A DNA stretch of 64,000 nucleotides from a virus: the IMG/VR virus record IMGVR_UViG_3300020045_004509, positions 58,707 to 122,706 of that record; one strand, given 5' to 3'. Made by a program: the position numbers and the translations under genes. Under the pieces are notes generated by a model. That model made no database searches. It was not told the origin of the DNA and saw only the letters and a program-made list of their open reading frames with translations. This document shows positions 16,150-37,906 of the stretch, piece after piece (the stretch's first letter is position 1; each line of letters begins with the position of its first letter).

Positions 16150-17967
16150 TTATCTTCCCAACAACTTATCTCGTTCTTTTTCTTTTTGAATTCCAGATTT
16201 ACCTTTTTTCATGATGTCTTTATGATCAACCCCAATCACAGATGCAATCCGTTCCCTTGTACTTGGCATCATTCTATGAAAAGAAACTGCTAAGTTATCT
16301 TCATATGTTCCATTGTCCATCCAAGCCCGTTTATTCAATTGGTGAGCCCAATGATCAACAATTGCTGACATTCCCGGAACTGCTTCCCTTTCATGTCTTA
16401 CTGTTGAATCATACAAGTTACCTTTCTTACGATTCAACCCATAAGTCGAATGGTATGCCATTTGATATGATTCAGGATTTAGGGTTCCTTGTTCAGAATG
16501 GGCTTTGATAATAGATTCAAATGGATATCTTCCCAATTTATGATCAGAATGAATCTTTACCCCAGAATATGAATCTCTGATATACATCCCATTTGTTTTT
16601 AGTTTAGCTAAAGACATATATTGATCCATCGTCTTTGCTTCAGGAAGATTACGGGAAATTTTACCAAGAAAATCTGTTCTGAATTGATTCGAGAAAACAT
16701 TTCTTCCAATAGCAACTTCTGATAAACGTCTAACATGATCTGGCCTATCTAAATTGAATTGGCTTGCTGCATGTTCAACTAACGCTTGATAATGGGGATT
16801 ATTCATTGACATCTGTAACTTTGTTGTTGCATCAATACCTCTATCAGCAAGGGTAAGGGATTCAGTAATTTTATCAAAGTCCCCAGTCTTATTAGCTTCT
16901 CGAATTCCTTTCAGATGGTTTGCTGCATCCCGTAATGTTTTTGATTTATACTTATGATCAGGATTGACTAACCCAATAACCTTTGCTTTTTTATGTTCAT
17001 CCTTATCAGTTGCAACAGCTTTCCATGCAAGATCAAGATGTTCCCCCGTTGGATTTTCTGGAAACTGATAATCTTGTCCATTGTCAGAATATACCCCATC
17101 GACCTTCTTGTATACATCATGTTTCTTAGTAAACATTTTTGATACTAATTCATTCGATTTTGGAAGAAACCAATCTGGTACGGTTCCATATACTCTGTTT
17201 TCGGGAAACAAGGTTTCATGTCCTGTACCTAACCCTTTATGCATTTTATATGATGTTCTACCAATCACATCATTTTCAACCGATCCCCCTCTTGGCACCA
17301 AATATACATGATGAGTATGCTGGCTAATTTCTTCTGGCATACATTTTGCTGCTGGGCCTTTTCCTTGAAACTTATCCCTTGAATCTTTTGTCCGAACATT
17401 TGCACATGAAATATAACCTTGCCCAGTTGATCCAGCCAAAACATCTTCAGGATGACCAGTAAGAATAAAATCGAATGCTTTTGTCTTAGCTCCAATGCGG
17501 AATGGATCATTATCATAAGCTTTCTTTAGATCAGGTTCTTTGTGCTTTTCTAAGATACCCCCAATTTTATGTTCAACAATCTTTTCCTGAAGACCATGGA
17601 CAGGATGATTAACTTGGATTGAAGACTTAGTAATACCAGCTTTATAATCTTCAGGGGTTGACGAATATCCTTTACCTTTTAGAAAAGACATTACCCCAAA
17701 ATGAGGTTCTTTAGCAGATTCAACCATATCAATTGGAACACGATGAGTCCATTGTTTAGTATCAGGATGATTCTTGAATGCATCTTCGGCAACTGGATGT
17801 TGTTTTAGAAATGCTTGACGATAGTATGAATGACCTGAACCCATCATTCTTCTTGCCATGTCTTTTTCGGTTTGATTCAATTCTTCATCTAACTGAATGA
17901 CTTCTTCTTGAATTGGTTCTTGTTTGATACCAATTGACAGATATGCTTTTGTGATTGAATCGACCAT
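16150..17967 (-). CDS. Large late protein, paralog family member 1 (putative virion internal protein)
   Basis: Shares DP.R / ST...SC / R..YG core with 22868, 25108 and 58195; CTAAATA upstream. Confidence 0.75.
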   Translation of the reverse strand: MVDSITKAYLSIGIKQEPIQEEVIQLDEELNQTEKDMARRMMGSGHSYYRQAFLKQHPVAEDAFKNHPDTKQWTHRVPIDMVESAKEPHFGVMSFLKGKGYSSTPEDYKAGITKSSIQVNHPVHGLQEKIVEHKIGGILEKHKEPDLKKAYDNDPFRIGAKTKAFDFILTGHPEDVLAGSTGQGYISCANVRTKDSRDKFQGKGPAAKCMPEEISQHTHHVYLVPRGGSVENDVIGRTSYKMHKGLGTGHETLFPENRVYGTVPDWFLPKSNELVSKMFTKKHDVYKKVDGVYSDNGQDYQFPENPTGEHLDLAWKAVATDKDEHKKAKVIGLVNPDHKYKSKTLRDAANHLKGIREANKTGDFDKITESLTLADRGIDATTKLQMSMNNPHYQALVEHAASQFNLDRPDHVRRLSEVAIGRNVFSNQFRTDFLGKISRNLPEAKTMDQYMSLAKLKTNGMYIRDSYSGVKIHSDHKLGRYPFESIIKAHSEQGTLNPESYQMAYHSTYGLNRKKGNLYDSTVRHEREAVPGMSAIVDHWAHQLNKRAWMDNGTYEDNLAVSFHRMMPSTRERIASVIGVDHKDIMKKGKSGIQKEKERDKLLGR

Positions 17968-19254: not shown

Positions 19255-19434
19255 TACCATATTTTAGCACACTCACTATAACATTGACCAAAAGCAGTGC
19301 GAAATGGTTGCTGATCTAATATGCTAAAATATAGTAGCTATTTGTCCATGCCTTCCGATTAGCAAAACGGAATACTTTCAAGACTGGCAGAGGTACTTTC
19401 TTTCAATTGGCAAGCGACATTTCCATTTGACTAA

Positions 19435-19650
19435 TTATAAATTGTAATTATTTAGATTGCATTTTTCTGAATCCGTATCGCTAGGTATGCGAAATACTTT
19501 ACGCTCATATGATAATATATTTTCAATATCATCCATTACTTCAGGGGACATACCACCAACCCATGTATTACATGTTGATTGGAATGTGTAGCCTAGTTTG
19601 ATTTCTTTACCATTTGCCAACGGAAGTGTTAAAATTTTAATGTTGTTCAT
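19435..19650 (-). CDS. Hypothetical protein
   Basis: 71-aa ORF with AAAGGA RBS. Confidence 0.55.
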   Translation of the reverse strand: MNNIKILTLPLANGKEIKLGYTFQSTCNTWVGGMSPEVMDDIENILSYERKVFRIPSDTDSEKCNLNNYNL

Positions 19651-19675
19651 AATATATTTCCTTTATTAAAATTTA

Positions 19676-19843
19676 TTATTTGTCTTTTTTCACAATGTCA
19701 TATTCATCTTTTGGAACAATATAGTAACCATCAATAGTTACTGTTACCACATCATCAATTGAACTTACTAAAGCAGGCAATCCAGCTTGACGATCTTTTT
19801 CTGACATAATAACATCACAATTTTTCACATACGATTCATTCAT
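19676..19843 (-). CDS. Small hypothetical protein (55 aa)
   Basis: Found by hand (MNESYVKNCDV...), with AAGGA RBS. Confidence 0.5.
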   Translation of the reverse strand: MNESYVKNCDVIMSEKDRQAGLPALVSSIDDVVTVTIDGYYIVPKDEYDIVKKDK

Positions 19844-19871
19844 TTTAATTTCCTTGATATATTTGATAACA

Positions 19872-20152
19872 ATAAACCCATCATCATTTCCAGCCAGAGG
19901 TTCAAATAGTGTTAACTAAACAAAACCTAACTCTGGATTTAAAAGAACTTTACAGGCTAATATTTTACACTTGACTGTATGAATTCTAATACCTAAACTC
20001 TGATTTTTAATCGTATGATATTTGACCGTTAAAGGTAAATACGCTTTCGCGTTATCGGTTTGATTATACATCCAAGTATGGTGGGAAACATTTCAGTTCT
20101 CGTTTCCCAAAGAACAGTAATTTCTATTTGATCAGAAATGGAATGGGTATTC
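19872..20152 (-). ncRNA. Putative structured ncRNA with ~7-nt periodic tract
   Basis: Long-range closing helix, three internal hairpins and ~12 imperfect heptamers; no ORF in the supplied track. Confidence 0.6.
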
Positions 20153-20160
20153 TTTACATG

Positions 20161-20234
20161 TCAGTACGGTGGGCCTCGAACCCACATATTCTTGTTTCCA
20201 AAACAAGTCGCCGTCCCCTTGGCACCACATACTG
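20161..20234 (-). tRNA. tRNA-Pro(UGG), no encoded CCA
   Basis: Acceptor CAGTATG/CGTACTG, anticodon arm CTTGT-TT TGG AA-ACAAG, T arm GTGGG-TTCGAGG-CCCAC. Confidence 0.8.
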
Positions 20235-20244
20235 TATTTTTTAT

Positions 20245-20886
20245 TTAATCAGCAATTTCAATCATTGTCTTTGCATTACTTTCCGACAATAACAAATCAA
20301 CTTCACTTGACAAAACAGAAATTTCTTCTGTAAGTTTAGCAATTCTACTTTCAATCTTTGCTGGATCAAGCAAGGCAGCTTCTTTTTGTTCCTTTTGAGG
20401 GGTAGCAACATTCTTGAATGTATCCCCATCAATTTTAGCCTTATCAGCCCCATAGATTGAAGTCAGCAATGTATCAATAGTGTTATCCACAACTTGATTC
20501 AGGTTTTTGACTTCTGTATTTTCCCGTTGCAATTGTACCCGAAGATACTGAAGATACTGTTCTTTGAATGCAACAGTGGACTTCAATTCAATAATTTCAG
20601 CAACAGTCATAGTCTGACCCATGATTGACACAAATGTATTTGCGTTTGATAGAACAATCGCAGACTTGATCTTCTGACGCTTGGCAATAAGACCATCAAC
20701 AGTATCGAAACTGGATTGAATCTTGGCAGTCATTTGTTCAACCGAATCATTGGAACCACCAACCTTTTTGTATTGGTTCTTACCGATTGTTCGGGATACA
20801 TACTTACCCGAAGCAATTGCGGTATTGATTTGATCATTGGTACGCTTCAATGTAACCAATGCCCTTGAAATACTAATTTGACTCAT
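20245..20886 (-). CDS. Coiled-coil hypothetical protein upstream of tRNA-Pro and the putative ncRNA
   Basis: RAL..LK...I, IK.AI..SNA.T.V.I....TVAE.I, LLDP and D..LSESNA.T.I; own TATAAT and RBS. Confidence 0.8.
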   Translation of the reverse strand: MSQISISRALVTLKRTNDQINTAIASGKYVSRTIGKNQYKKVGGSNDSVEQMTAKIQSSFDTVDGLIAKRQKIKSAIVLSNANTFVSIMGQTMTVAEIIELKSTVAFKEQYLQYLRVQLQRENTEVKNLNQVVDNTIDTLLTSIYGADKAKIDGDTFKNVATPQKEQKEAALLDPAKIESRIAKLTEEISVLSSEVDLLLSESNAKTMIEIAD

Positions 20887-20928
20887 TTTAAATTTCCTTT
20901 TGTTTAAGTTGGTTAATTATAACACACT

Positions 20929-21129
20929 TTATTGACTGTTACCAGATTTCAGTAAAAATAATTTACCTTCGTTTCCACATTCAATACAAGAACGCATATC
21001 ATCACAAGTTGCGAATGATCGGTAGCCCCGCACTGGTTCAATTTCATCTTCTGCTTCAGGATGACAACAGATATCAGAAAATCTCGATTCACTTTGACGA
21101 TAGAATTCACAGTCTTTACATAATTTCAT
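20929..21129 (-). CDS. Small Cys-rich hypothetical protein
   Basis: Start MKLCKDC after AAGGA; ends CG.EGKLF. Confidence 0.6.
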   Translation of the reverse strand: MKLCKDCEFYRQSESRFSDICCHPEAEDEIEPVRGYRSFATCDDMRSCIECGNEGKLFLLKSGNSQ

Positions 21130-21145
21130 TTTATATTCCTTTTGT

Positions 21146-21391
21146 TTAATCAACGCGAATAGTCGATCCTTTGAACCAACCAGCACAGACTACTCCAGTT
21201 ACTTGTTGACCATTTGCACCTTTGGCTTCAAATCCAGTATGGAACGCATCTTTTTCGTCACAACCAAAAAATGCATAACCAGTTGTAACAATATTGGTAT
21301 AACCTGATGCTGCTAATGCTGATCGGGCAGCATCAGGTTTAGAACAAGCTGACAGAAGAATGATTGAAGCAATAATAAAAAGTTTTTTCAT
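21146..21391 (-). CDS. Putative lipoprotein
   Basis: Signal peptide with lipobox LSAC; G.VC.GWFKGSTIR. Confidence 0.8.
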   Translation of the reverse strand: MKKLFIIASIILLSACSKPDAARSALAASGYTNIVTTGYAFFGCDEKDAFHTGFEAKGANGQQVTGVVCAGWFKGSTIRVD

Positions 21392-21414
21392 TTTAGATTC
21401 CTTTAGATGATGAA

Positions 21415-22359
21415 TTATACCCTACTTTTGAACACTTCCATGATATTTTTAGAAATGATTTCATCTTTCGTGTTTGCTATCATTTCGGATGAAAATCTTG
21501 GATCATTTTTAAGAGCTTGAATGAACAATCCAAGTTCTTTATCCTGAAGTCCGGTAAGTTCTTTGACTATGTTTCCATTGAACTTTACTGCATTTGAATC
21601 AATCATCAACTTCTTTTTCCACAATGCATCATACTTTTCTTTGGCATCAGGAAACGCATCAAAAATCAAATCAAGATATATAGTTTTATCTTTTACGCGG
21701 GGAAACCATTCCTTTTTTGGTAATGTTGAACAAAGGTGAAGAAATTGATGATATGAAGGACGTTTTCTGTCCCTCACCCGCGAAATTGTATTGTTATTTT
21801 CCAACAAGAATACTTCTGGATTGAAATATTTTGATGCAACAATATTATCAAATACATCTTGAAATTCCGTTGCTGTACTTGGTAATGGTTTGATATCAAG
21901 AAAATCTTCTGCTTTCCTTGGATCAAGTGTCAACAGAACATCTCCTACTTTATGAGAATCGGATAGTCGTACTGGTAGCCATAGTCCATCATGCCCAAAT
22001 TTTAACCCTAACATATGAGCGATTTTCCCAACAAAATTACAACGGTCACTAGAACCTAGGTAATTTCTATGAAAGTCATATTCCTTTTCATTTGAAACTA
22101 TCAGATCAATTTGAAGTTCTTCATATAACAATGACCATGTATTTCCATTGTGATTAACATAATCTGTTCTGAACCAATCTTTAAGTCTATCTACTGACAA
22201 TGGGGATGCTGGAATACAGATCACATCCATATCCCCAAAAGTTTCTTTCGATTTAAGATAAGGACAAACTTCAAATTTATCAAACAACGCAGCAAAAATA
22301 CCATCAGAAAGATGATCTTCTATTGCGATATATTCATCCCTATTATATCGTCTATTCAT
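21415..22359 (-). CDS. Pol-beta-superfamily nucleotidyltransferase-like protein
   Basis: K.TFGDMDV and a third Asp in QIDLI. Confidence 0.65.
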   Translation of the reverse strand: MNRRYNRDEYIAIEDHLSDGIFAALFDKFEVCPYLKSKETFGDMDVICIPASPLSVDRLKDWFRTDYVNHNGNTWSLLYEELQIDLIVSNEKEYDFHRNYLGSSDRCNFVGKIAHMLGLKFGHDGLWLPVRLSDSHKVGDVLLTLDPRKAEDFLDIKPLPSTATEFQDVFDNIVASKYFNPEVFLLENNNTISRVRDRKRPSYHQFLHLCSTLPKKEWFPRVKDKTIYLDLIFDAFPDAKEKYDALWKKKLMIDSNAVKFNGNIVKELTGLQDKELGLFIQALKNDPRFSSEMIANTKDEIISKNIMEVFKSRV

Positions 22360-22867: not shown

Positions 22868-25099
22868 TTACCAGTTGTCATCCCCAAATTCATCATGTTC
22901 ATCAGTTCTTTGTTTTGCATCAGAAATCCGTTCATGAACTTCCTTAACATAATCATTGAAGTGTTCTGTATCATCATATCGGGAAGAATTATTTTCTGTC
23001 TTGTAATTTTCTAATACATCAAGATTCCCAAGATGTTTTTCGGCAACTTCCATTTGGGGATAATTGCGAATAAGTTCATTCCTATGAGTCGATCCATCTG
23101 TTGCATGTTTATCAAGATGATTGTCAATATTTGACACATAACTTTCAATTCTACCATGCAACGCATCTTGAAGATTTCCTTTTTCTTCATCTTCGTCTGG
23201 ATCATACAAATCATCTGGATGTTTAGCTTTTTGGGCATCAATATGATCAGTAATCTTTTGGTCAGCATCTTCAACCAATTTTTGATGGGCTTTCAGATGA
23301 TCATTGGATGACTTTGCATCTTCAAAGTAAAACTGCTTTCCTGTCTTTGCTAATTCATCATGATCAGATGATGTCATTACTGACGAAATAGCTTCTGGAA
23401 TCTTGTTTACTTTATCAAATATAGCATTAGCCCGAATCGGAAATGTTTTTTCGTTCACAAATCGATTCTTCAGTTTTACTTTAGTATCTGTTGAAATATT
23501 TGGATTTTCTGCTAAGTCTACCCCATGATTATGGGAATTAGCAAACTGCGACAAATCATCAAATGATGCAAATTTAGAATTGCGCATTAATTGATGGGTA
23601 TTGCTAAATTTATAGGAATTACTTAAATTATTTACAAATGCATCATGATGTTCTTGGGTAAAGTTTTCGTTCTTAGGAAGAATATTAACCAAATCAGAAT
23701 TTCGCATATTGGTAGTCAACTTATCCAAATTTTCCTTGGAAAAATATCCAGCATGTTCCCTAACGGGATATGCAGACCCTGACATATTGTTGACATAGTT
23801 ATCAACAACCTTATCATAATGTTTTGGCTTCAACAAAGATCGACGAACATGAATATAATCATCTGGATTTACTTGATCAACCAAAGACTCATGAAGTTTT
23901 GAGTTCATTAGCATTCTTCTTGGGATGCCTTGATTCGATGCAGCAAATGAATTAATGGCATTCGTCGAAAATTTATCCCCATGAAGCATTGCTAAAGTTC
24001 TAACCGCCGCTTTATTTTCATCAGTAATATTATGCCCATCGATCAGTTTATGAAGGGCTGCTACATGTTGAACACTAAGATTACCAACTTGGGCCATATT
24101 GGAAACAAATGTTGGTTTATCTAAAGAATACTGCTTACCATGTAGTATTGCATGATCAATAATTGGTTTATCTAATCCAGTTCCAGTTTTATCAACTAAT
24201 GGTTTATTTCTATTGATTTTATCTTCTACTTGGTCTTTAGACATAGCAGAATATGTTGACCCCATTGTATCATTGTAGATTTTAGAATTCAAATGATATG
24301 TTGTTCCATCCTTTGCAGGAAAACTATTTGTTAAGAATGTATTGAATACATGGGGGAAAGCGGAGGAACTTGACCCCCATACTTTATCTTCGGCCCGAAC
24401 AATCGTATCCGATTCATGATCATCTGGTTCTTCATGCATTGGTTTAGCGGAAATTCGGGCAAGTGGTTTATCAGGTTCTCCCCACTTCATTGCCCCTTCA
24501 TCGTCATGATGCACTTCGAAAGCAACAACTGAACCATTTTCAGAATCATCCCTAAGATATCTTCTATGAATTCCACTTTCAAGATTCATGCATGATTGGG
24601 TTTCCCATGAACAACCCGGAGAAGTTGATGATGCAATTGCGACTGGACTATGGGCAATAAGGGCATATGTTTGCTTTCCTGATAAAGCTTTTGTTGATGC
24701 CCTTGCTGGATCATTGATGAATGTTTTCTTGATGTCATCAGATGCATTCGTTTCATCTAAAACTTTACCAATAGATTTCGAAACAATCTTTTCTTGGGGG
24801 CCATTTTGAGGATGATTAACAATCACTTTCTTTTGGGCGATTCCTTTTTGATAATCAGACACATCCCAATCATGTTTTGTTAGATGTTCAGCAACGTCTG
24901 AATCCATATCGCCATGACCTTGTTTTGGAATTGGAATAACAGTAAATCCTTTAGCACCGAATGCATGACTGAACTTATCATGGGTTTCTTGGGAAAGATT
25001 AGCATGATGATCCCAATTTTCAGGAATGTGTCTAAGATGATCAGGAATGATTGTTTCTGAAATAGTTTGTTTTAGGCGAAATTCTTTAAAAGTAAGCAT
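22868..25099 (-). CDS. Large late protein, paralog family member 2
   Basis: N-terminus MLTFKEF; core DPAR...SCMNL...RAEDKVWG. Confidence 0.75.
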   Translation of the reverse strand: MLTFKEFRLKQTISETIIPDHLRHIPENWDHHANLSQETHDKFSHAFGAKGFTVIPIPKQGHGDMDSDVAEHLTKHDWDVSDYQKGIAQKKVIVNHPQNGPQEKIVSKSIGKVLDETNASDDIKKTFINDPARASTKALSGKQTYALIAHSPVAIASSTSPGCSWETQSCMNLESGIHRRYLRDDSENGSVVAFEVHHDDEGAMKWGEPDKPLARISAKPMHEEPDDHESDTIVRAEDKVWGSSSSAFPHVFNTFLTNSFPAKDGTTYHLNSKIYNDTMGSTYSAMSKDQVEDKINRNKPLVDKTGTGLDKPIIDHAILHGKQYSLDKPTFVSNMAQVGNLSVQHVAALHKLIDGHNITDENKAAVRTLAMLHGDKFSTNAINSFAASNQGIPRRMLMNSKLHESLVDQVNPDDYIHVRRSLLKPKHYDKVVDNYVNNMSGSAYPVREHAGYFSKENLDKLTTNMRNSDLVNILPKNENFTQEHHDAFVNNLSNSYKFSNTHQLMRNSKFASFDDLSQFANSHNHGVDLAENPNISTDTKVKLKNRFVNEKTFPIRANAIFDKVNKIPEAISSVMTSSDHDELAKTGKQFYFEDAKSSNDHLKAHQKLVEDADQKITDHIDAQKAKHPDDLYDPDEDEEKGNLQDALHGRIESYVSNIDNHLDKHATDGSTHRNELIRNYPQMEVAEKHLGNLDVLENYKTENNSSRYDDTEHFNDYVKEVHERISDAKQRTDEHDEFGDDNW

Positions 25100-25107
25100 G
25101 GAGTTCC

Positions 25108-27513
25108 TTAACCGTTATAATGAGACAATGTGCGTTTGCGAAAGATTGCATTCGATGAAATCTTGGAATTTGGGTGTTTAACAAATGAATCTAACAAATC
25201 TTCATTCTTTGTTGCAGATGCAACCGAAGCAAGCATATCGGGGGTTCCCCTTTGCAACATTTCAGTTTCTAAATTTGGAATACCAGAATGTCTTGAATAT
25301 GCTGCCCCCAATTTATCATCAGGAACCAAGTGAAGTAGATGGGGGGATTTTTCTGCAACATAAGAAATTACCCTTGAATGGAGTATGCCGCTATCATTGG
25401 TAATATTGATTAGTTTCTTTCCAATTTCATGATCCTTATATTTAGATGCAATGAAGTCCATTGTGTCATCATGCCCTCTTAGATCAATCATTCCTGTTGA
25501 TGGATTCTTTTCGTTTAGTTCTTTTGCCTGAAGAATAGATGCTAAATGGGTATCGTCAGAATTTGGATTATGGATAATATTATGAATGATTTCGTGAGAA
25601 TAGTTACCAACCAGTTTTCTTACCCCCGGAATGTTCGTCGCTCCTGCCCCCCATGTATTCAAAACCTGATGTAGTTGTTCAGGGGAAGAATTTACATTTT
25701 TAGAGACACCTTTTGATACAATTGGGGAATCGAATGTTGAATCTAATAATGGTTGAATCTGTTCAGGGGTCTTTGCGTACTGTGCAATTTGGGATTTGAA
25801 ATGGGAAGACTTCATAGGATTGTTATCATCTTTGATGGCAACCTTTCGGAAAATTTCATCCCTTGTATAATCAGACATATTGGGGTTCTTCATTGCTGCA
25901 ACAACCCCATGGGAATATTTTAATTCAAATGCTTTACTGACCAAATGATGTATCACATCAGGATCAGGATGATGTTCTAACGCAAATGTGTCTTGACTTT
26001 GATCTTTCCAATATTCGTCATGTTTAGAATCAAAATTTCGAATTTTTGTTGGGCCTTCTTGATATGCGTCATGGTGAAGGGTGTATTCAGCGTCAGTTGC
26101 TGGATAATTTTCTTCACAATGTTTCTGAAGTGTTTCAGTAAAACCAGCCCATTCATTACCATAAATTTGTCCTGTTGGTCTAATGATAGGTTTACCCCCT
26201 TCATTAGAATAGAACACATTCAATGTCTGTCTTGCAATTTTGTTGTAATGTTCATGAATTTTGTCGGGGTCATTTGTCAGAAATGCGACATGTGCGCCTG
26301 ATGCAACAATATGAGGAACCTTTTCTGCTTGGGCTCCCCGTTTTTGATCATTTATTGATTTATTACCTTGTCTATCAGTATATCGGGCAGGCCCACCTAA
26401 TGTTAAGCATGAATCAGAATTTTCATGGGTAGATAATCCAGCAACAACATGGGGATTTCGGGAAATTACAATCTTTGCGCGTTTACTTTCCCCATCATCT
26501 TTCTGATAAATGCCTTGTCTTGCTGGATCAGTTTCGAATAATGTTTTTACATTAGTAGATGCTTTTGTTAACTCAAGAATCTTACCAATTTTGATTTTTC
26601 TATTCGGGGTTGATTCATGAGCAGCCAAACCATCAGAATAATTTCCAGCAATATTATAGCCATGAGTATTAAGATGATGAACAACTTCTGAATTAGGTTT
26701 AGCGTTCTTTGGTCGTTCAAGATCGATTACGATGGTATCATTAGGCATCTTATCCTTAGAAACCCGTTCAGCAGCAGTTAGCCCCCCATATTTGGTTGAA
26801 TTTGATGCTTTAGTTGCCATTGCTTTGTGAGCAGGGTCTTGAATCGCTTCAATAAGATTATCGGATTTTTTGGAATATCCTGAACCAATTGCAGATTTGA
26901 TTTGGTTAGGATGAAACACATTTGCAATAATATGATCATCGTATTTTACAATCACCCCATCATGACCAGTGATTTTTGTAAAATTTTCTAAAAATTCTTT
27001 ATGATTATCCCCATAGAAATCTCTATGAATTGTTCCCATTGCCTGAAATTTGGAACGATCTTTATATGCATCAACCGCCTGATTCAATACTTTATGATAT
27101 CCCTCATAAGATACATCCCCAAAATTTTCCAAGGATTCTTTATGATTTGGAGCAGACGTAATCAGTTTTTGAATATGAAGTCTTGATAATGGTTTCTCAT
27201 CTTCATTATAGATGATGGGCTTTTCCATTCTAATGTGAACAGGAATTACATTCGATGAGTTTCCCCCATATGCATAACTTGATGCTATTTCTGGTTTATT
27301 GCTAAAATAGAACCCAGCCCCATATGAATCAGCCCCTTTACCAACAAACGCATGATCAAACTTTTCTATATCAGAACTAGTACCATGATAAAACGTATGG
27401 GGAATACCGTTTGTATGAAGAACAGATTTACCAAACCAAGACTTAAAATCATCTTGTTTTGATTCTGGGATACTGATTACATGTCGAATGGCTTCGTATA
27501 AAGATTGTTTCAT
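25108..27513 (-). CDS. Large late protein, paralog family member 3, with N-terminal ADP-ribosyltransferase-like (ART-PolyVal-type) domain
   Basis: FK.WFG.S, YHGT, G.GFYFS...A..YA, HDGVI and VF.PNQIKSA; then the family core and NPN helical repeats. Confidence 0.75.
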   Translation of the reverse strand: MKQSLYEAIRHVISIPESKQDDFKSWFGKSVLHTNGIPHTFYHGTSSDIEKFDHAFVGKGADSYGAGFYFSNKPEIASSYAYGGNSSNVIPVHIRMEKPIIYNEDEKPLSRLHIQKLITSAPNHKESLENFGDVSYEGYHKVLNQAVDAYKDRSKFQAMGTIHRDFYGDNHKEFLENFTKITGHDGVIVKYDDHIIANVFHPNQIKSAIGSGYSKKSDNLIEAIQDPAHKAMATKASNSTKYGGLTAAERVSKDKMPNDTIVIDLERPKNAKPNSEVVHHLNTHGYNIAGNYSDGLAAHESTPNRKIKIGKILELTKASTNVKTLFETDPARQGIYQKDDGESKRAKIVISRNPHVVAGLSTHENSDSCLTLGGPARYTDRQGNKSINDQKRGAQAEKVPHIVASGAHVAFLTNDPDKIHEHYNKIARQTLNVFYSNEGGKPIIRPTGQIYGNEWAGFTETLQKHCEENYPATDAEYTLHHDAYQEGPTKIRNFDSKHDEYWKDQSQDTFALEHHPDPDVIHHLVSKAFELKYSHGVVAAMKNPNMSDYTRDEIFRKVAIKDDNNPMKSSHFKSQIAQYAKTPEQIQPLLDSTFDSPIVSKGVSKNVNSSPEQLHQVLNTWGAGATNIPGVRKLVGNYSHEIIHNIIHNPNSDDTHLASILQAKELNEKNPSTGMIDLRGHDDTMDFIASKYKDHEIGKKLINITNDSGILHSRVISYVAEKSPHLLHLVPDDKLGAAYSRHSGIPNLETEMLQRGTPDMLASVASATKNEDLLDSFVKHPNSKISSNAIFRKRTLSHYNG

Positions 27514-37801: not shown

Positions 37802-37906
37802 TGGTGCGGGTGGAGGGAGTTGAACCCACGACTTACCCCTTTTTTTATATTCTATTTCGAAAACATAAAAGAAGGGGGTTACTCTAGCCATCTGAGTTAC
37901 ACCCGC
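37802..37906 (-). tRNA. tRNA-like gene with 35-nt expanded anticodon loop (identity unresolved)
   Basis: Acceptor GCGGGTG/CACCCGC plus A-CCA, D arm ACTC/GAGT, anticodon stem ACCCC/GGGGT, T loop TTCAACT. Confidence 0.75.

What the first reader, a model, noticed from the sequence alone, without database searches (positions are those of the whole stretch)
19872..20886. Coiled-coil gene, tRNA-Pro and a ~280-nt RNA carrying a ~7-nt periodic tract: candidate RNA-protein system
Seen on the minus strand: a closing helix CCCATTCCATTTC (20147-20135) with GAAATGATGATGGG (19890-19877). Inside are hairpins GGGAAAC/GTTTCCC, ACGC-GAAA-GCGT and CCAGAG..GGTT/AACCTCTGG. Between them (~20032-19947) are about 12 imperfect units: TTAACGG TCAAATA TCATACGA TTAAAAA TCAGAGT TTAGGTA TTAGAAT TCATACAG TCAAGT GTAAAATA TTAGCCT GTAAAGT, consensus (T/G)YA then variable bases. 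The element follows a 213-aa helical protein gene with its own promoter. I recall similar gene-plus-periodic-RNA pairs in other genomes (possibly DIP1984-like proteins) but cannot verify this. Inference: an oligomeric protein binds one unit per subunit, acting as a scaffold, ruler or antitoxin-like RNA, and tRNA processing may release the RNA's 5' end.
Basis: partly seen in the sequence, partly recalled or inferred. Interest (0 to 1): 0.82.

Follow-up and report, generated by a model that had tools for sequence, protein, structure and literature searches.

The report
Knotted phage RNA with twelve heptads
Behind a small helical-protein gene and a tRNA gene, this phage encodes a real, knotted non-coding RNA of about 270 bases that carries about twelve evenly spaced 7-base units. 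The same gene-plus-RNA pair recurs in very different large phages, is in no RNA catalogue I searched, and is probably an undescribed protein-RNA particle.

Summary
On the minus strand, after the 213-aa gene (20886-20245) and tRNA-Pro (20234-20160), lies a ~271-nt RNA (20147-19877). "GGGAAAC/GTTTCCC" is stem 2 of an H-type knot with GTTCT/AGAAC, and TCAAATAG pairs at long range with CTATTTGA.

The element belongs to a large class. In 93 of 102 loci that encode a homologue, the strongest 7-nt periodicity of the locus lies just downstream of the gene. A covariance model built without the window hits it once (E 1.5e-8). Helices covary. Unit number peaks at 12.

The protein (phrog_1491, mislabelled "tail fiber") has the fold of 3KDQ (DIP1984-like; Z 12.0). 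A model supports self-association.

No Rfam family matched and I found no paper. Binding, expression and function were not tested.

Best reading: an early-made RNP in which a closed protein oligomer reads the 12 units, as TRAP and HutP do.

This scan noted the same module at least 14 times on other DNA.

The parts
20916..20924 (-). Candidate extended -10 promoter element (TGnTATAAT), 30 nt before the ATG of the 213-aa gene
   Evidence: Read directly from the sequence. Not listed by the consensus scan, so unverified.
20245..20886 (-). 213-aa helical protein gene: phrog_1491 family, DIP1984-like fold, annotated 'tail fiber' in some phages
   Evidence: ORF. phrog_1491 E 3.7e-53. AF2 pLDDT 90. 3kdq Z 12.0. 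Profile search finds 3133 clusters at 50% identity.
20160..20234 (-). tRNA-Pro (anticodon UGG); no encoded CCA; lies between the gene and the RNA
   Evidence: ARAGORN. Rfam RF00005 at 39 bits.
20133..20147 (-). P1, 5' strand of the closing helix (CCCATTCCATTTCTG)
   Evidence: Across the family the closing helix has a median score of 12 against 6 for cross-locus partners.
20124..20131 (-). J1, 5' strand of the long-range pseudoknot PK2 (TCAAATAG)
   Evidence: 8 perfect pairs with 19909-19902. A helix at the same position is seen in 29 of 37 relatives against 14.5% of cross-locus pairs.
20083..20115 (-). PK1, an H-type pseudoknot. S1 is GTTCT 20115-20111 / AGAAC 20100-20096. S2 is GGGAAAC 20108-20102 / GTTTCCC 20089-20083
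   Evidence: The pseudoknot finder scores 13 here. A score of 10 or more is reached in 65 of 83 loci against 9 of 83 shuffles, with different sequences in different clades.
20066..20079 (-). P3 hairpin (ATAC-TTGGAT-GTAT)
   Evidence: Read from the sequence and from the aligned relatives printed. Not counted statistically.
20041..20052 (-). P4 hairpin ACGC-GAAA-GCGT (GNRA loop); this position is variable in relatives
   Evidence: Relatives carry a hairpin of varying sequence here. Not counted statistically.
19947..20032 (-). Phased tract of 12-13 units of about 7 nt, each starting U-Y-A-R
   Evidence: Period 7.2; 0 of 5000 shuffles reach its power. Unit segmentation.
19894..19940 (-). 3' domain: invariant AAAUCC, helix P5 (CCAGAG 19936-19931 / CTCTGG 19899-19894), and the 3' strand of PK2 (CTATTTGA 19909-19902)
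   Evidence: Model R1, built from 37 other loci, matches 19888-19947 at 39.1 bits, E 1.5e-8. P5 covariation: 0 of 500 shuffles.
19877..19895 (-). Invariant GGCUG (19895-19891) running into the 3' strand of P1 (TGGAAATGATGATGGG, 19892-19877)

Best explanation
The 271 nt at 20147-19877 (minus strand) are a member of a widespread, uncatalogued class of phage non-coding RNAs.

The RNA's shape: a closing helix and two pseudoknots form a scaffold. The scaffold holds out a stretch of about 87 nt with about 12 phased units, U-Y-A-R here and U-Y-A-A-A-G-N in the family.

How it is made (inferred): it is transcribed early together with the upstream DIP1984-fold protein gene and tRNA-Pro, and cut free by tRNA-processing enzymes.

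How it works (inferred): it assembles with its neighbour protein into a particle of fixed size. A closed oligomer, for example six symmetric dimers, reads one unit per site. TRAP and HutP read spaced triplets in the same way.

What the particle does is unknown. Its constant place in phage tRNA clusters points to tRNA or translation biology, or to host takeover.

Shown: the RNA structure and its conservation, the gene-RNA linkage, the constancy of unit number, and the protein fold. Inferred: co-transcription, processing, binding, stoichiometry and function.
For: Linkage of gene and RNA:
- tblastn finds homologues in 692 phage records.
- 4 of 4 annotated records inspected have a 360-440-nt unannotated gap after the gene.
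- The strongest 6.6-8.0-nt periodicity of the whole locus lies 100-280 nt after the stop codon in 79 of 85 loci and in 14 of 17 further loci.
- Three of the misses are RNAs pushed downstream by an insertion: L007/L008 and L064.

Membership of the window's RNA:
- Model R1 was built without the window. It hits the window once, at E 1.5e-8.
- It also hits 39 of 64 loci that were not used to build it. Every hit is on the gene's strand and downstream of the gene.
- A strict motif scan of IMG/VR gave 6 hits. All 6 lie on contigs that hold the gene.

Structure:
- PK1: 65 of 83 loci against 9 of 83 shuffles.
- P1: median score 12 against 6, p 3e-15.
- PK2: 29 of 37 against 193 of 1332 cross-locus pairs.
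- P5: 57 cells changed on both sides against 22 expected; 0 of 500 shuffles.
- G-U pairs occur only on this strand.

Fixed size:
- Unit number has its mode at 12 (27 of 80 tracts). 57 of 80 tracts have 11-14 units. Shuffles have a median of 1 and a maximum of 6.
- One '7-unit' case, L018, is 7 + 5 units split by an inserted hairpin.

Protein:
- Constant length of about 205-217 aa, in 3133 clusters.
- A 4-copy ESMFold2 model gives ipSAE 0.48 against a best control of 0.00. That mark was reached by 20 of 30 proteins solved as pairs and by 1 of 23 solved as single chains. The three runs agree in at least 85% of contacts, and the partner's pLDDT is at least 80. The interface is symmetric between two copies.

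tRNA context:
- 241 tRNAs lie in 49 of 102 loci, all on the gene's strand.
- In 11 of 40 non-redundant loci a tRNA abuts the 3' end of the RNA.
Against: - No expression data: no sequencing run was listed.
- No binding data of any kind.
- The protein is not basic: pI is 7.8 here, and the family median is 6.6. It matches no RNA-binding family.
- The oligomer model shows a dimer, not a ring. Only 4 copies were tried, outside the tool's calibration, and the solved relative 3KDQ could make the pass a memory effect.
- Thermodynamic folding does not predict that the tract is unpaired: mean pairing probability is 0.57 against 0.60 for the rest, and the tract is lower in only 24 of 37 RNAs.
- Canonical DUF6847 genes in Bacilli lack a heptad tract; it is the top window in 1 of 11. 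The tract is therefore not a property of the whole superfamily.
- In this window the periodicity is weaker than in most relatives (power 4.4 against a typical 5-9) and the AAAG part of the unit is degenerate.
- A later check noted by the scan on a sister finding (e1-222571) kept the observation but put its bold reading at 1 in 100.
Confidence: 0.55

Rival explanations
1. The RNA is a decoy or sponge for a host factor. Its 12 phased units would titrate a host RNA-binding protein or nuclease, for example a tRNA-directed or single-strand-specific one. The upstream protein would be only a co-expressed helper or chaperone, or unrelated.
For: - Repeat-bearing sponge RNAs are an established kind (CsrB/RsmZ; my own knowledge).
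- The module sits in early tRNA clusters of lytic phages.
- The protein is not basic and has no RNA-binding family match.
Against: - The near-obligate, same-strand, immediately adjacent linkage to one protein family, across T5-like, Vequintavirinae, Otagovirus, Vibrio, Bacillus and T4-like phages, is hard to explain if the protein is irrelevant.
- Hosts differ widely, yet the unit and its number stay the same.
Confidence: 0.17
2. The RNA self-assembles into an RNA-only architecture, like the large ornate ROOL and GOLLD RNAs that are also found near tRNAs in phages and prophages. The tract would mediate RNA-RNA contacts.
For: - It shares the genomic context of ROOL and GOLLD: near tRNAs, in phages and prophages (passages of PMC5737381).
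- It has an elaborate knotted fold.
Against: - At about 270 nt it is much smaller, and it matches no Rfam model, including those two.
- The units are direct repeats of A-rich sequence with little self-complementarity; base composition is A 0.39, U 0.32.
- ROOL and GOLLD are not tied to one protein gene.
Confidence: 0.08
3. The element acts in cis. It could be a 3'-UTR or processing and stability module of the polycistronic tRNA transcript, or an autoregulatory site where the protein binds its own mRNA's 3' end.
For: - It lies directly 3' of the gene on the same strand.
- In this window no terminator-like site was found on the minus strand in 19300-21500, so none separates it from the neighbouring genes.
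- tRNAs abut it.
Against: - A 270-400-nt double-pseudoknotted scaffold with about 12 conserved units is far more than known stabilisers need.
- In this window and in L018 a tRNA lies between the gene and the RNA, or inside the RNA. tRNA processing would then sever the RNA from the mRNA.
- In L007 and L064 an insertion separates the gene and the RNA, and both persist.
Confidence: 0.1
4. It is a type III toxin-antitoxin-like pair: the repeat RNA neutralises a toxic protein.
Against: - The protein has a helical DIP1984-like fold, not a ToxN-type endoribonuclease fold.
- The units are 7 nt, not about 36 nt, and the RNA follows rather than precedes the gene (ToxIN layout from my own knowledge).
- The padloc library was not searched.
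- The module is carried by strictly lytic phages inside tRNA clusters.
Confidence: 0.04
5. It is chance or a coding sequence: the 51-codon ORF at 20071-19916, or an accidental repeat.
For: An ORF of 51 codons overlaps the tract. One coding window elsewhere in the 64 kb has higher 7-nt power.
Against: - A 7.2-nt period is incompatible with codons.
- Structure covaries in dozens of unrelated phages.
- The model hit has E 1.5e-8.
Confidence: 0.01

Closest known systems
TRAP (MtrB) on the Bacillus trp leader, and HutP on hut mRNA (properties recalled from my own knowledge)
   Same: A homo-oligomer of fixed size reads short sequence units spaced at a fixed interval on single-stranded RNA. TRAP reads 11 (G/U)AG triplets. 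HutP reads UAG triplets separated by 4 nt, which is also a 7-nt period. Here about 12 UYA(R) units sit at 7-nt spacing and their number is conserved.
   Different: The protein fold is unrelated: a helical DIP1984-like bundle. The RNA is a free-standing, knotted molecule 3' of the gene, not a 5' leader, so there is no attenuation context. Binding is not shown.
DIP1984 family / Pfam DUF6847 (PF20935); crystal structure 3KDQ, a Corynebacterium diphtheriae protein of unknown function
   Same: Same fold: VIA-align gives Z 12.0 with 151 of 152 residues aligned, and Foldseek probability is 1.00 at E 0.02. There is a faint sequence signal: E 0.18 to 3kdq. The nearest Pfam-bearing cluster in the Atlas is PF20935. 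Canonical members also have a conserved non-coding element downstream.
   Different: The window protein does not reach the Pfam model, and only 2 of 28 relatives match it, at E 0.18 or worse. It is about 60 residues longer. The RNA behind canonical members has no heptad tract. The family has no known function.
ROOL and GOLLD large ornate RNAs
   Same: They are elaborate non-coding RNAs of unknown function, often next to tRNA genes in phages and prophages (passages of PMC5737381).
   Different: There is no Rfam match. This RNA is much shorter, carries a phased repeat tract, and is tied to one protein family.
Type III toxin-antitoxin systems (ToxIN) and CsrB/RsmZ sponge RNAs (recalled)
   Same: These are RNAs built of repeated protein-binding units.
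   Different: Their units are 36-nt pseudoknots (ToxI) or GGA hairpins (CsrB). Their proteins have unrelated folds and their gene order differs.
RAGATH-27 (Rfam RF03100), a lead from earlier notes of this scan
   Same: Earlier notes say it matches the first 86 nt of some sister RNAs.
   Different: Not reproduced here. There is no match at E up to 10 in 19600-20400. There is none at the gathering score in 20 loci and none at E up to 0.05 in 11 loci. The name occurs in no paper of the library.

Membership tests
Phage heptad-repeat RNA class (uncatalogued; defined here from relatives) | Lies on the same strand directly downstream of a phrog_1491-family gene | tested here: met
   Gene at 20886-20245, RNA at 20147-19877, with only tRNA-Pro between them.
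Phage heptad-repeat RNA class (uncatalogued; defined here from relatives) | 3' domain with invariant AAAUCC ... GGCUG enclosing the covarying helix P5 | tested here: met
   Model R1, built without the window, gives 39.1 bits and E 1.5e-8. It is the only significant hit in 64 kb. P5 covariation: 0 of 500 shuffles.
Phage heptad-repeat RNA class (uncatalogued; defined here from relatives) | H-type pseudoknot PK1 in the 5' domain | tested here: met
   GTTCT/AGAAC interleaved with GGGAAAC/GTTTCCC scores 13. Family: 65 of 83 loci against 9 of 83 shuffles.
Phage heptad-repeat RNA class (uncatalogued; defined here from relatives) | Closing helix P1 and long-range pseudoknot PK2 (J1 with the 3' domain) | tested here: met
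   P1 and an 8-bp PK2 are present.
Phage heptad-repeat RNA class (uncatalogued; defined here from relatives) | About 12 phased units of about 7 nt starting U-Y-A | tested here: met
   13 units by segmentation and 12 by eye; period 7.2.
PHROG phrog_1491 | Full-length match to the profile | tested here: met
   E 3.7e-53; residues 1-212 match profile positions 2-210 of 211.
Tail fiber protein (the label phrog_1491 carries) | Structural-module context and a fibre-like fold | tested here: not met
   The gene lies among small early-type ORFs and tRNAs. The model is a compact helical bundle like 3KDQ. I did not trace where the label came from.
Pfam PF20935 (DUF6847) / DIP1984 family | Score over the Pfam gathering cut-off | tested here: not met
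   Not listed at E up to 0.1 for the window protein. 2 of 28 relatives match, at E 0.18 or worse.
Pfam PF20935 (DUF6847) / DIP1984 family | Same fold as the solved member 3KDQ | tested here: met
Z 12.0, rmsd 4.8, 151 of 152 residues aligned; the next hit has Z 7.3. Foldseek's top hit.
TRAP / HutP-type RNA-binding oligomers | The protein fold of TRAP or HutP | tested here: inconclusive
   Neither appears among the listed fold matches. The model is helical, so this is an analogy only.
TRAP / HutP-type RNA-binding oligomers | Protein binds phased triplets, one per subunit | not testable with these tools
   No RNA-protein modelling or binding assay was available. Only self-association was modelled.
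Type III toxin-antitoxin (ToxIN-like) | ToxN-type endoribonuclease, with an array of about 36-nt repeats upstream of it | tested here: not met
   The fold is helical. The units are 7 nt and lie downstream. The ToxIN layout is recalled.
Any Rfam 15 family (including RAGATH-27, ROOL, GOLLD) | Covariance-model match | tested here: not met
   Only tRNA reaches the gathering score in the window. Nothing relevant appears at E up to 10 in 19600-20400.

The most novel reading that the evidence does not exclude
The pair is a phage-wide ribonucleoprotein particle of a kind not yet described. A double-pseudoknotted RNA scaffold closes an ~87-nt loop of twelve phased UYA(R) sites, and a closed assembly of the DIP1984-fold protein (twelve sites, for example six symmetric dimers) locks onto that loop. 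The particle would be made early with the phage's own tRNAs and would act on tRNA or translation, or against a host defence. If so, the whole DIP1984/DUF6847 superfamily (3KDQ, 'septicolysin' annotations) would be RNA-partnered proteins, each clade with its own downstream RNA.
Probability: 0.25. Interest if true: 0.9.

Novelty: categorically new. Interest (0 to 1): 0.8.

Why it matters
The protein family is very large and has no known function. A profile search finds 3133 clusters at 50% identity and tblastn finds homologues in 692 phage records, including relatives of the model phage T5. In public records the gene is labelled 'tail fiber' or 'hypothetical', and the 270-440 nt behind it are left blank.

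If the pair is an RNP, it is a new class of viral RNA-protein machine. It sits in the tRNA clusters whose role in infection and in escape from anticodon nucleases is under active study. It can be tested directly in T5-like phages of E. coli.

It would also give a first functional handle on the DIP1984/DUF6847 fold, which was solved in 2009 (3KDQ) without a function. It would correct a widespread mis-annotation.

The conserved count of about 12 units gives a sharp, falsifiable prediction of stoichiometry.

Tried and rejected
Expression
- The look-up of sequencing runs on window:19600-21000 (kind any): none was listed and no RNA holder was listed. Read laying could therefore not be used.

Closer relatives
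- The metagenome scan with the single protein gave only 9 loci. The genome scan gave 8.
- blastn of the region against the phage records found no match.

Fusions
- The search for longer homologues found none at E up to 1e-5. This is weak evidence.

Rfam and RAGATH-27
- No match in the window or in the 27 distinct loci searched.

Protein family scans
- NCBIfam gave only sub-threshold coiled-coil noise.
- Pfam hits (ZapB, DASH_Duo1, FlaG and others) are all under their cut-offs and are typical of coiled coils.
- The RecA hits in the PDB sequence search cover 40 residues of artificial multi-copy RecA fusion chains. I took them as chance.

Is the tract single-stranded?
- Thermodynamic folding did not separate the tract from the rest. 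I therefore do not claim it.

RNAalifold
- On the MAFFT alignment A2 it found only 4 pairs. I extended the helix by hand and counted it. The inner helix 23-24/63-64 is weak, with 63.5% of cells paired.

Ideas considered and dropped as numerology
- U-YAR read as U33 plus Leu anticodons.
- YAR read as stop or Gln codons.
- UUCAAA read as a T-loop mimic.
- AAAG read as the complement of the tRNA-Lys anticodon loop.
- None fits the unit logo well, and the units have no stems.
- Rho, Hfq, CsrA and cold-shock proteins were considered as readers. None has a matching site spacing or composition (my own knowledge).

Papers
- Searches found nothing on this RNA or on DUF6847/DIP1984 with an RNA.
- The preprint 10.64898/2026.09.22.753630 ('Minerva') was seen only as a search listing with the start of its abstract. 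It could not be opened, so it may or may not describe this class.
- Supplements were closed. The supplementary motif lists of PMC5737381 could bear on this and were not seen.
Full report
WHAT IS THERE. The window is part of a 122.7-kb IMG/VR virus record estimated to be 70% complete. It is AT-rich and packed with small phage-type ORFs. On the minus strand the order is as follows:
- a candidate extended -10 element, TGnTATAAT, at 20924-20916. This is read from the sequence; the consensus scan did not list it;
- a 213-codon gene at 20886-20245;
- tRNA-Pro(UGG) at 20234-20160, with no encoded CCA;
- 12 nt of spacer;
- 271 nt without a credible ORF, at 20147-19877;
- the ribosome-binding site and ATG (19843) of a 55-codon ORF.
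No terminator-like site was found on the minus strand here.

CHECK OF THE OBSERVATION.
- The closing helix (20147-20133 with 19892-19877) gives -13.8 kcal/mol as a duplex. It also appears in the MFE fold, where the region has z -2.27 and 2 of 100 shuffles fold as well.
- The tract 20032-19947 has a sharp spectral peak at period 7.2. No shuffle out of 5000 reaches it.
- Within the 64 kb it ranks second; a coding window at 17341-17424 ranks first. The window alone is therefore suggestive, not conclusive.

THE SAME PAIR ELSEWHERE.
- The protein matches phrog_1491 ('tail fiber protein') over its full length, E 3.7e-53.
- tblastn finds homologues in 692 phage records, all under 60% identical. They include T5-like, Vequintavirinae, Otagovirus, Vibrio, Bacillus and Clostridium phages.
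- In 4 of 4 annotated records inspected, the gene is followed by 360-440 nt with no annotation. Each gap holds a 7-nt phased tract.
- I fetched 80 IMG/VR loci with a profile of 28 homologues, 9 metagenome loci and 8 loci from genome bins and isolates.
- The strongest 6.6-8.0-nt periodicity of the entire ~5.6-kb locus lies 100-280 nt after the stop codon in 79 of 85 loci. The same holds in 14 of 17 further loci.
- Of the 9 misses, L086 ends 88 nt after the gene.
- L007/L008 and L064 have the RNA pushed downstream by an insertion.
- L076 and L082 still carry the 3' domain.
- L035 still shows the pseudoknot and a phased tract by eye.
- L088 and L102 have no tract that I could detect.

STRUCTURE AND COVARIATION. 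Reading the relatives side by side shows a common plan.
- P1, the closing helix. Its ungapped helix score has a median of 12 in 37 non-redundant loci, against 6 when the two flanks come from different loci. 0.8% of cross pairs reach 12; p 3e-15.
- J1. This joiner pairs with a fixed site inside the 3' domain and forms pseudoknot PK2. A helix of 6 or more is seen in 29 of 37 loci against 193 of 1332 cross pairs; p 3e-14. The pairing sequences differ, for example ACAAACC/GGTTTGT, ACGCTTC/GAGGTGT and, in the window, TCAAATAG/CTATTTGA.
- PK1, an H-type pseudoknot. It reaches a score of 10 or more in 65 of 83 loci against 9 of 83 shuffles. Its stems are GTTCT/AGAAC with GGGAAAC/GTTTCCC here, ACCC/GGGT with TTCCTCGG/CCGGGGAG in one other clade, and GCGTCC/GGACGT with CTTCTCGC/GCGAGAG in another.
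- One or two variable hairpins. In this window these are P3 and the GNRA-capped P4.
- The tract.
- The 3' domain. AAAUCC and GGCUG are invariant and flank helix P5. P5 has 57 cells changed on both sides against 22 expected, covariation score 0.476 against 0.152, and 0 of 500 shuffles reach it. Slid registers score 0.08-0.18.
G-U pairs in these helices fit only the gene's strand, so the element works as RNA.

A covariance model of the 3' domain, built from 37 other loci, finds exactly one significant match in the window: 19888-19947(-), 39.1 bits, E 1.5e-8. It matches 39 of 64 loci that were not used to build it. Six of those loci duplicate training sequences. Each matched locus has one match, on the gene's strand and downstream of the gene. 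The other 25 are mostly a clade with a variant 3' motif, such as phiPsa374. A strict motif scan of IMG/VR returned 6 places, all on contigs already known to hold the gene. This is a small reverse test.

THE UNITS.
- An EM segmentation of 81 non-redundant tracts gives the unit U(0.76) Y(0.81) A(0.84) A(0.73) A(0.56) G(0.53) N. Of the units, 948 are 7 nt long and 250 are 8 nt long.
- The window keeps U-Y-A-R and is degenerate after that.
- With a stricter unit penalty, the number of units per RNA has its mode at 12 (27 of 80). 57 of 80 RNAs have 11-14 units. Shuffled tracts give a median of 1 and a maximum of 6.
- One of the five '7-unit' RNAs, L018, is in fact 7 + 5 units split by an inserted hairpin. 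It also has a tRNA-like element embedded before the tract.
- A conserved count across phages whose proteins are only 30-40% identical argues for a particle of fixed size rather than an open filament or a variable ruler. This step is inference.

tRNA LINK.
- ARAGORN finds 241 tRNAs in 49 of the 102 loci, all on the gene's strand.
- In 11 of 40 non-redundant loci a tRNA starts 17-30 nt after GGCUG, directly behind P1. RNase P cleavage there would make the RNA's 3' end.
- In the window and in L018 a tRNA lies between the gene's stop codon and the tract. In the window it sits before P1; in L018 it is embedded in the RNA.

THE PROTEIN.
- No Pfam or NCBIfam family reaches its cut-off.
- The AlphaFold2 model is confident: pLDDT 90. 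It shows five helices plus a small sheet made of the N-terminal strand, a hairpin at 85-94 and the C-terminal strand.
- The motif SNAxT recurs before both sheet segments: VLSNANT at 78-84 and SESNAKT at 201-207. This hints at an internal duplication.
- The only fold match that stands out is 3KDQ, a C. diphtheriae protein of unknown function. Foldseek gives E 0.02 and probability 1.00. VIA-align gives Z 12.0 over 151 of 152 residues, with the next hit at 7.3. The profile-to-sequence E-value is 0.18.
- The Atlas's nearest Pfam-bearing cluster carries PF20935 (DUF6847) on 16% of its members.
- A 4-copy ESMFold2 job passed. ipSAE was 0.48 against a best control of 0.00. That mark was reached by 20 of 30 proteins solved as pairs and by 1 of 23 solved as single chains. 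The runs agree in at least 85% of contacts, and the partner's pLDDT is at least 80. The interface is large and symmetric between two copies.
- Caveats on that job: it used my own alignment, four copies lie outside the tool's calibration, and a solved relative exists.
- The family is large and uniform: 3133 clusters at E up to 0.001, with nearly all of the listed best 150 at 202-234 aa (one of 286 aa). No longer fused form was found (weak evidence).
- The protein is not basic: pI 7.8 here and a family median of 6.6.

CANONICAL DUF6847.
- PF20935 genes were found in 11 of 151 sampled genomes of the class of G001, the Sporosarcina genome that holds L098.
- Their downstream regions lack a heptad tract: it is the top window in 1 of 11.
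- However, all 7 loci with the strongest PF20935 matches (L109-L115) share a different conserved non-coding element of about 200 nt. It ends in GTGAGGGYGGR-NNN-GGGG and has no Rfam match.
- This suggests that partnership with a downstream RNA is a property of the superfamily, and that the RNA differs by clade.

WHAT IS KNOWN.
- Rfam 15 gives only tRNAs in the window. Nothing relevant appears at E up to 10 in the region.
- In 20 + 11 loci (27 distinct) it gives only tRNAs and one 'drum' RNA, about 770 nt past the gene in L065.
- The RAGATH-27 lead from earlier notes was not reproduced.
- Literature searches found nothing on this RNA or on DUF6847/DIP1984 together with an RNA.
- Passages of PMC5737381 describe ROOL and GOLLD as tRNA- and prophage-associated. 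That is the nearest match in genomic context.
- One 2026 preprint on mining non-coding elements could be seen only as a listing.

HOW IT MOST LIKELY WORKS.
- Shown: a conserved, strand-specific, doubly knotted RNA; obligate linkage to one protein family; a phased sequence-conserved tract of about 12 units; a protein of DIP1984-like fold.
- Inferred: the RNA is cut out of an early polycistronic transcript by tRNA-processing enzymes. The scaffold closes the tract into a loop. A closed oligomer of the neighbour protein reads one unit per site, as TRAP and HutP read phased triplets (recalled knowledge).
- Geometry allows this. Seven nt can span a helical bundle about 25-30 A wide, so twelve bundles would need about 4 A per nt. 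This is my own estimate, not a computation.
- Function is open.
- The rivals, in order of weight: a host-factor sponge, a cis-acting element, RNA-only assembly, and a toxin-antitoxin pair.

EARLIER NOTES OF THE SCAN. The same module was noted at least 14 times on other DNA. I re-derived the pseudoknots, the 3KDQ relation, the count of about 12 units and the T5-like occurrence from my own calls. I have therefore kept the probability of the bold reading modest.

LIMITS.
- No expression or binding evidence.
- The statistics for P1, PK1 and PK2 come from my own scripts, which used ungapped helices and mononucleotide or cross-locus controls, not R-scape.
- P3 and P4 were not tested statistically.

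Noticed in passing
window 37805-37906 (-): A second tRNA-like gene. Rfam scores it at 51.6 bits, and it has an encoded CCA. ARAGORN finds it only when introns are allowed: the anticodon loop carries a 28-nt insert, and it is called tRNA-Phe(AAA). It may be an intron-containing or non-canonical phage tRNA.
   Followed up: partly
L109-L115 (Bacilli genomes), about 20-270 nt after the stop of canonical DUF6847 (PF20935) genes: All 7 loci with the strongest PF20935 matches are followed by a conserved non-coding element of about 200 nt. Its motifs include GGTARC, CCGCCRAC..GTYGGA, GCCCAGTAC and a terminal GTGAGGGYGGR-NNN-GGGG. It has no heptad tract and no Rfam match. It is probably a second, undescribed RNA partner of this protein superfamily.
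   Followed up: partly
L018:3238-3314: In this IMG/VR relative a tRNA-Thr-like element sits inside the RNA, between the pseudoknot and the tract. The tract is split 7 + 5 by an inserted hairpin.
   Followed up: partly
L065:3907-4014: A 'drum' RNA (RF02958, 47.7 bits) lies about 770 nt downstream of the homologous gene on the Clostridium phage contig, next to the module and to tRNAs.
   Followed up: no
window 16150-17967, 22868-25099 and 25108-27513 (-): Three large ORFs of 605, 743 and 801 aa flank the module. The two I scanned (605 and 743 aa) have no Pfam or PHROG match. I did not examine this.
   Followed up: no
window 17341-17424: This is the only 84-nt window of the 64 kb with stronger ~7-nt periodicity (power 5.24) than the RNA tract. 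It lies inside the 605-aa ORF.
   Followed up: no
L001:3430-3455 and L002:3440-3470: In phiPsa374 and Vibrio phage Pylo the RNA is followed by a clear GC-rich hairpin and a U-run, which looks like an intrinsic terminator. The window has none, so the way the 3' end is made seems to differ between phages.
   Followed up: no
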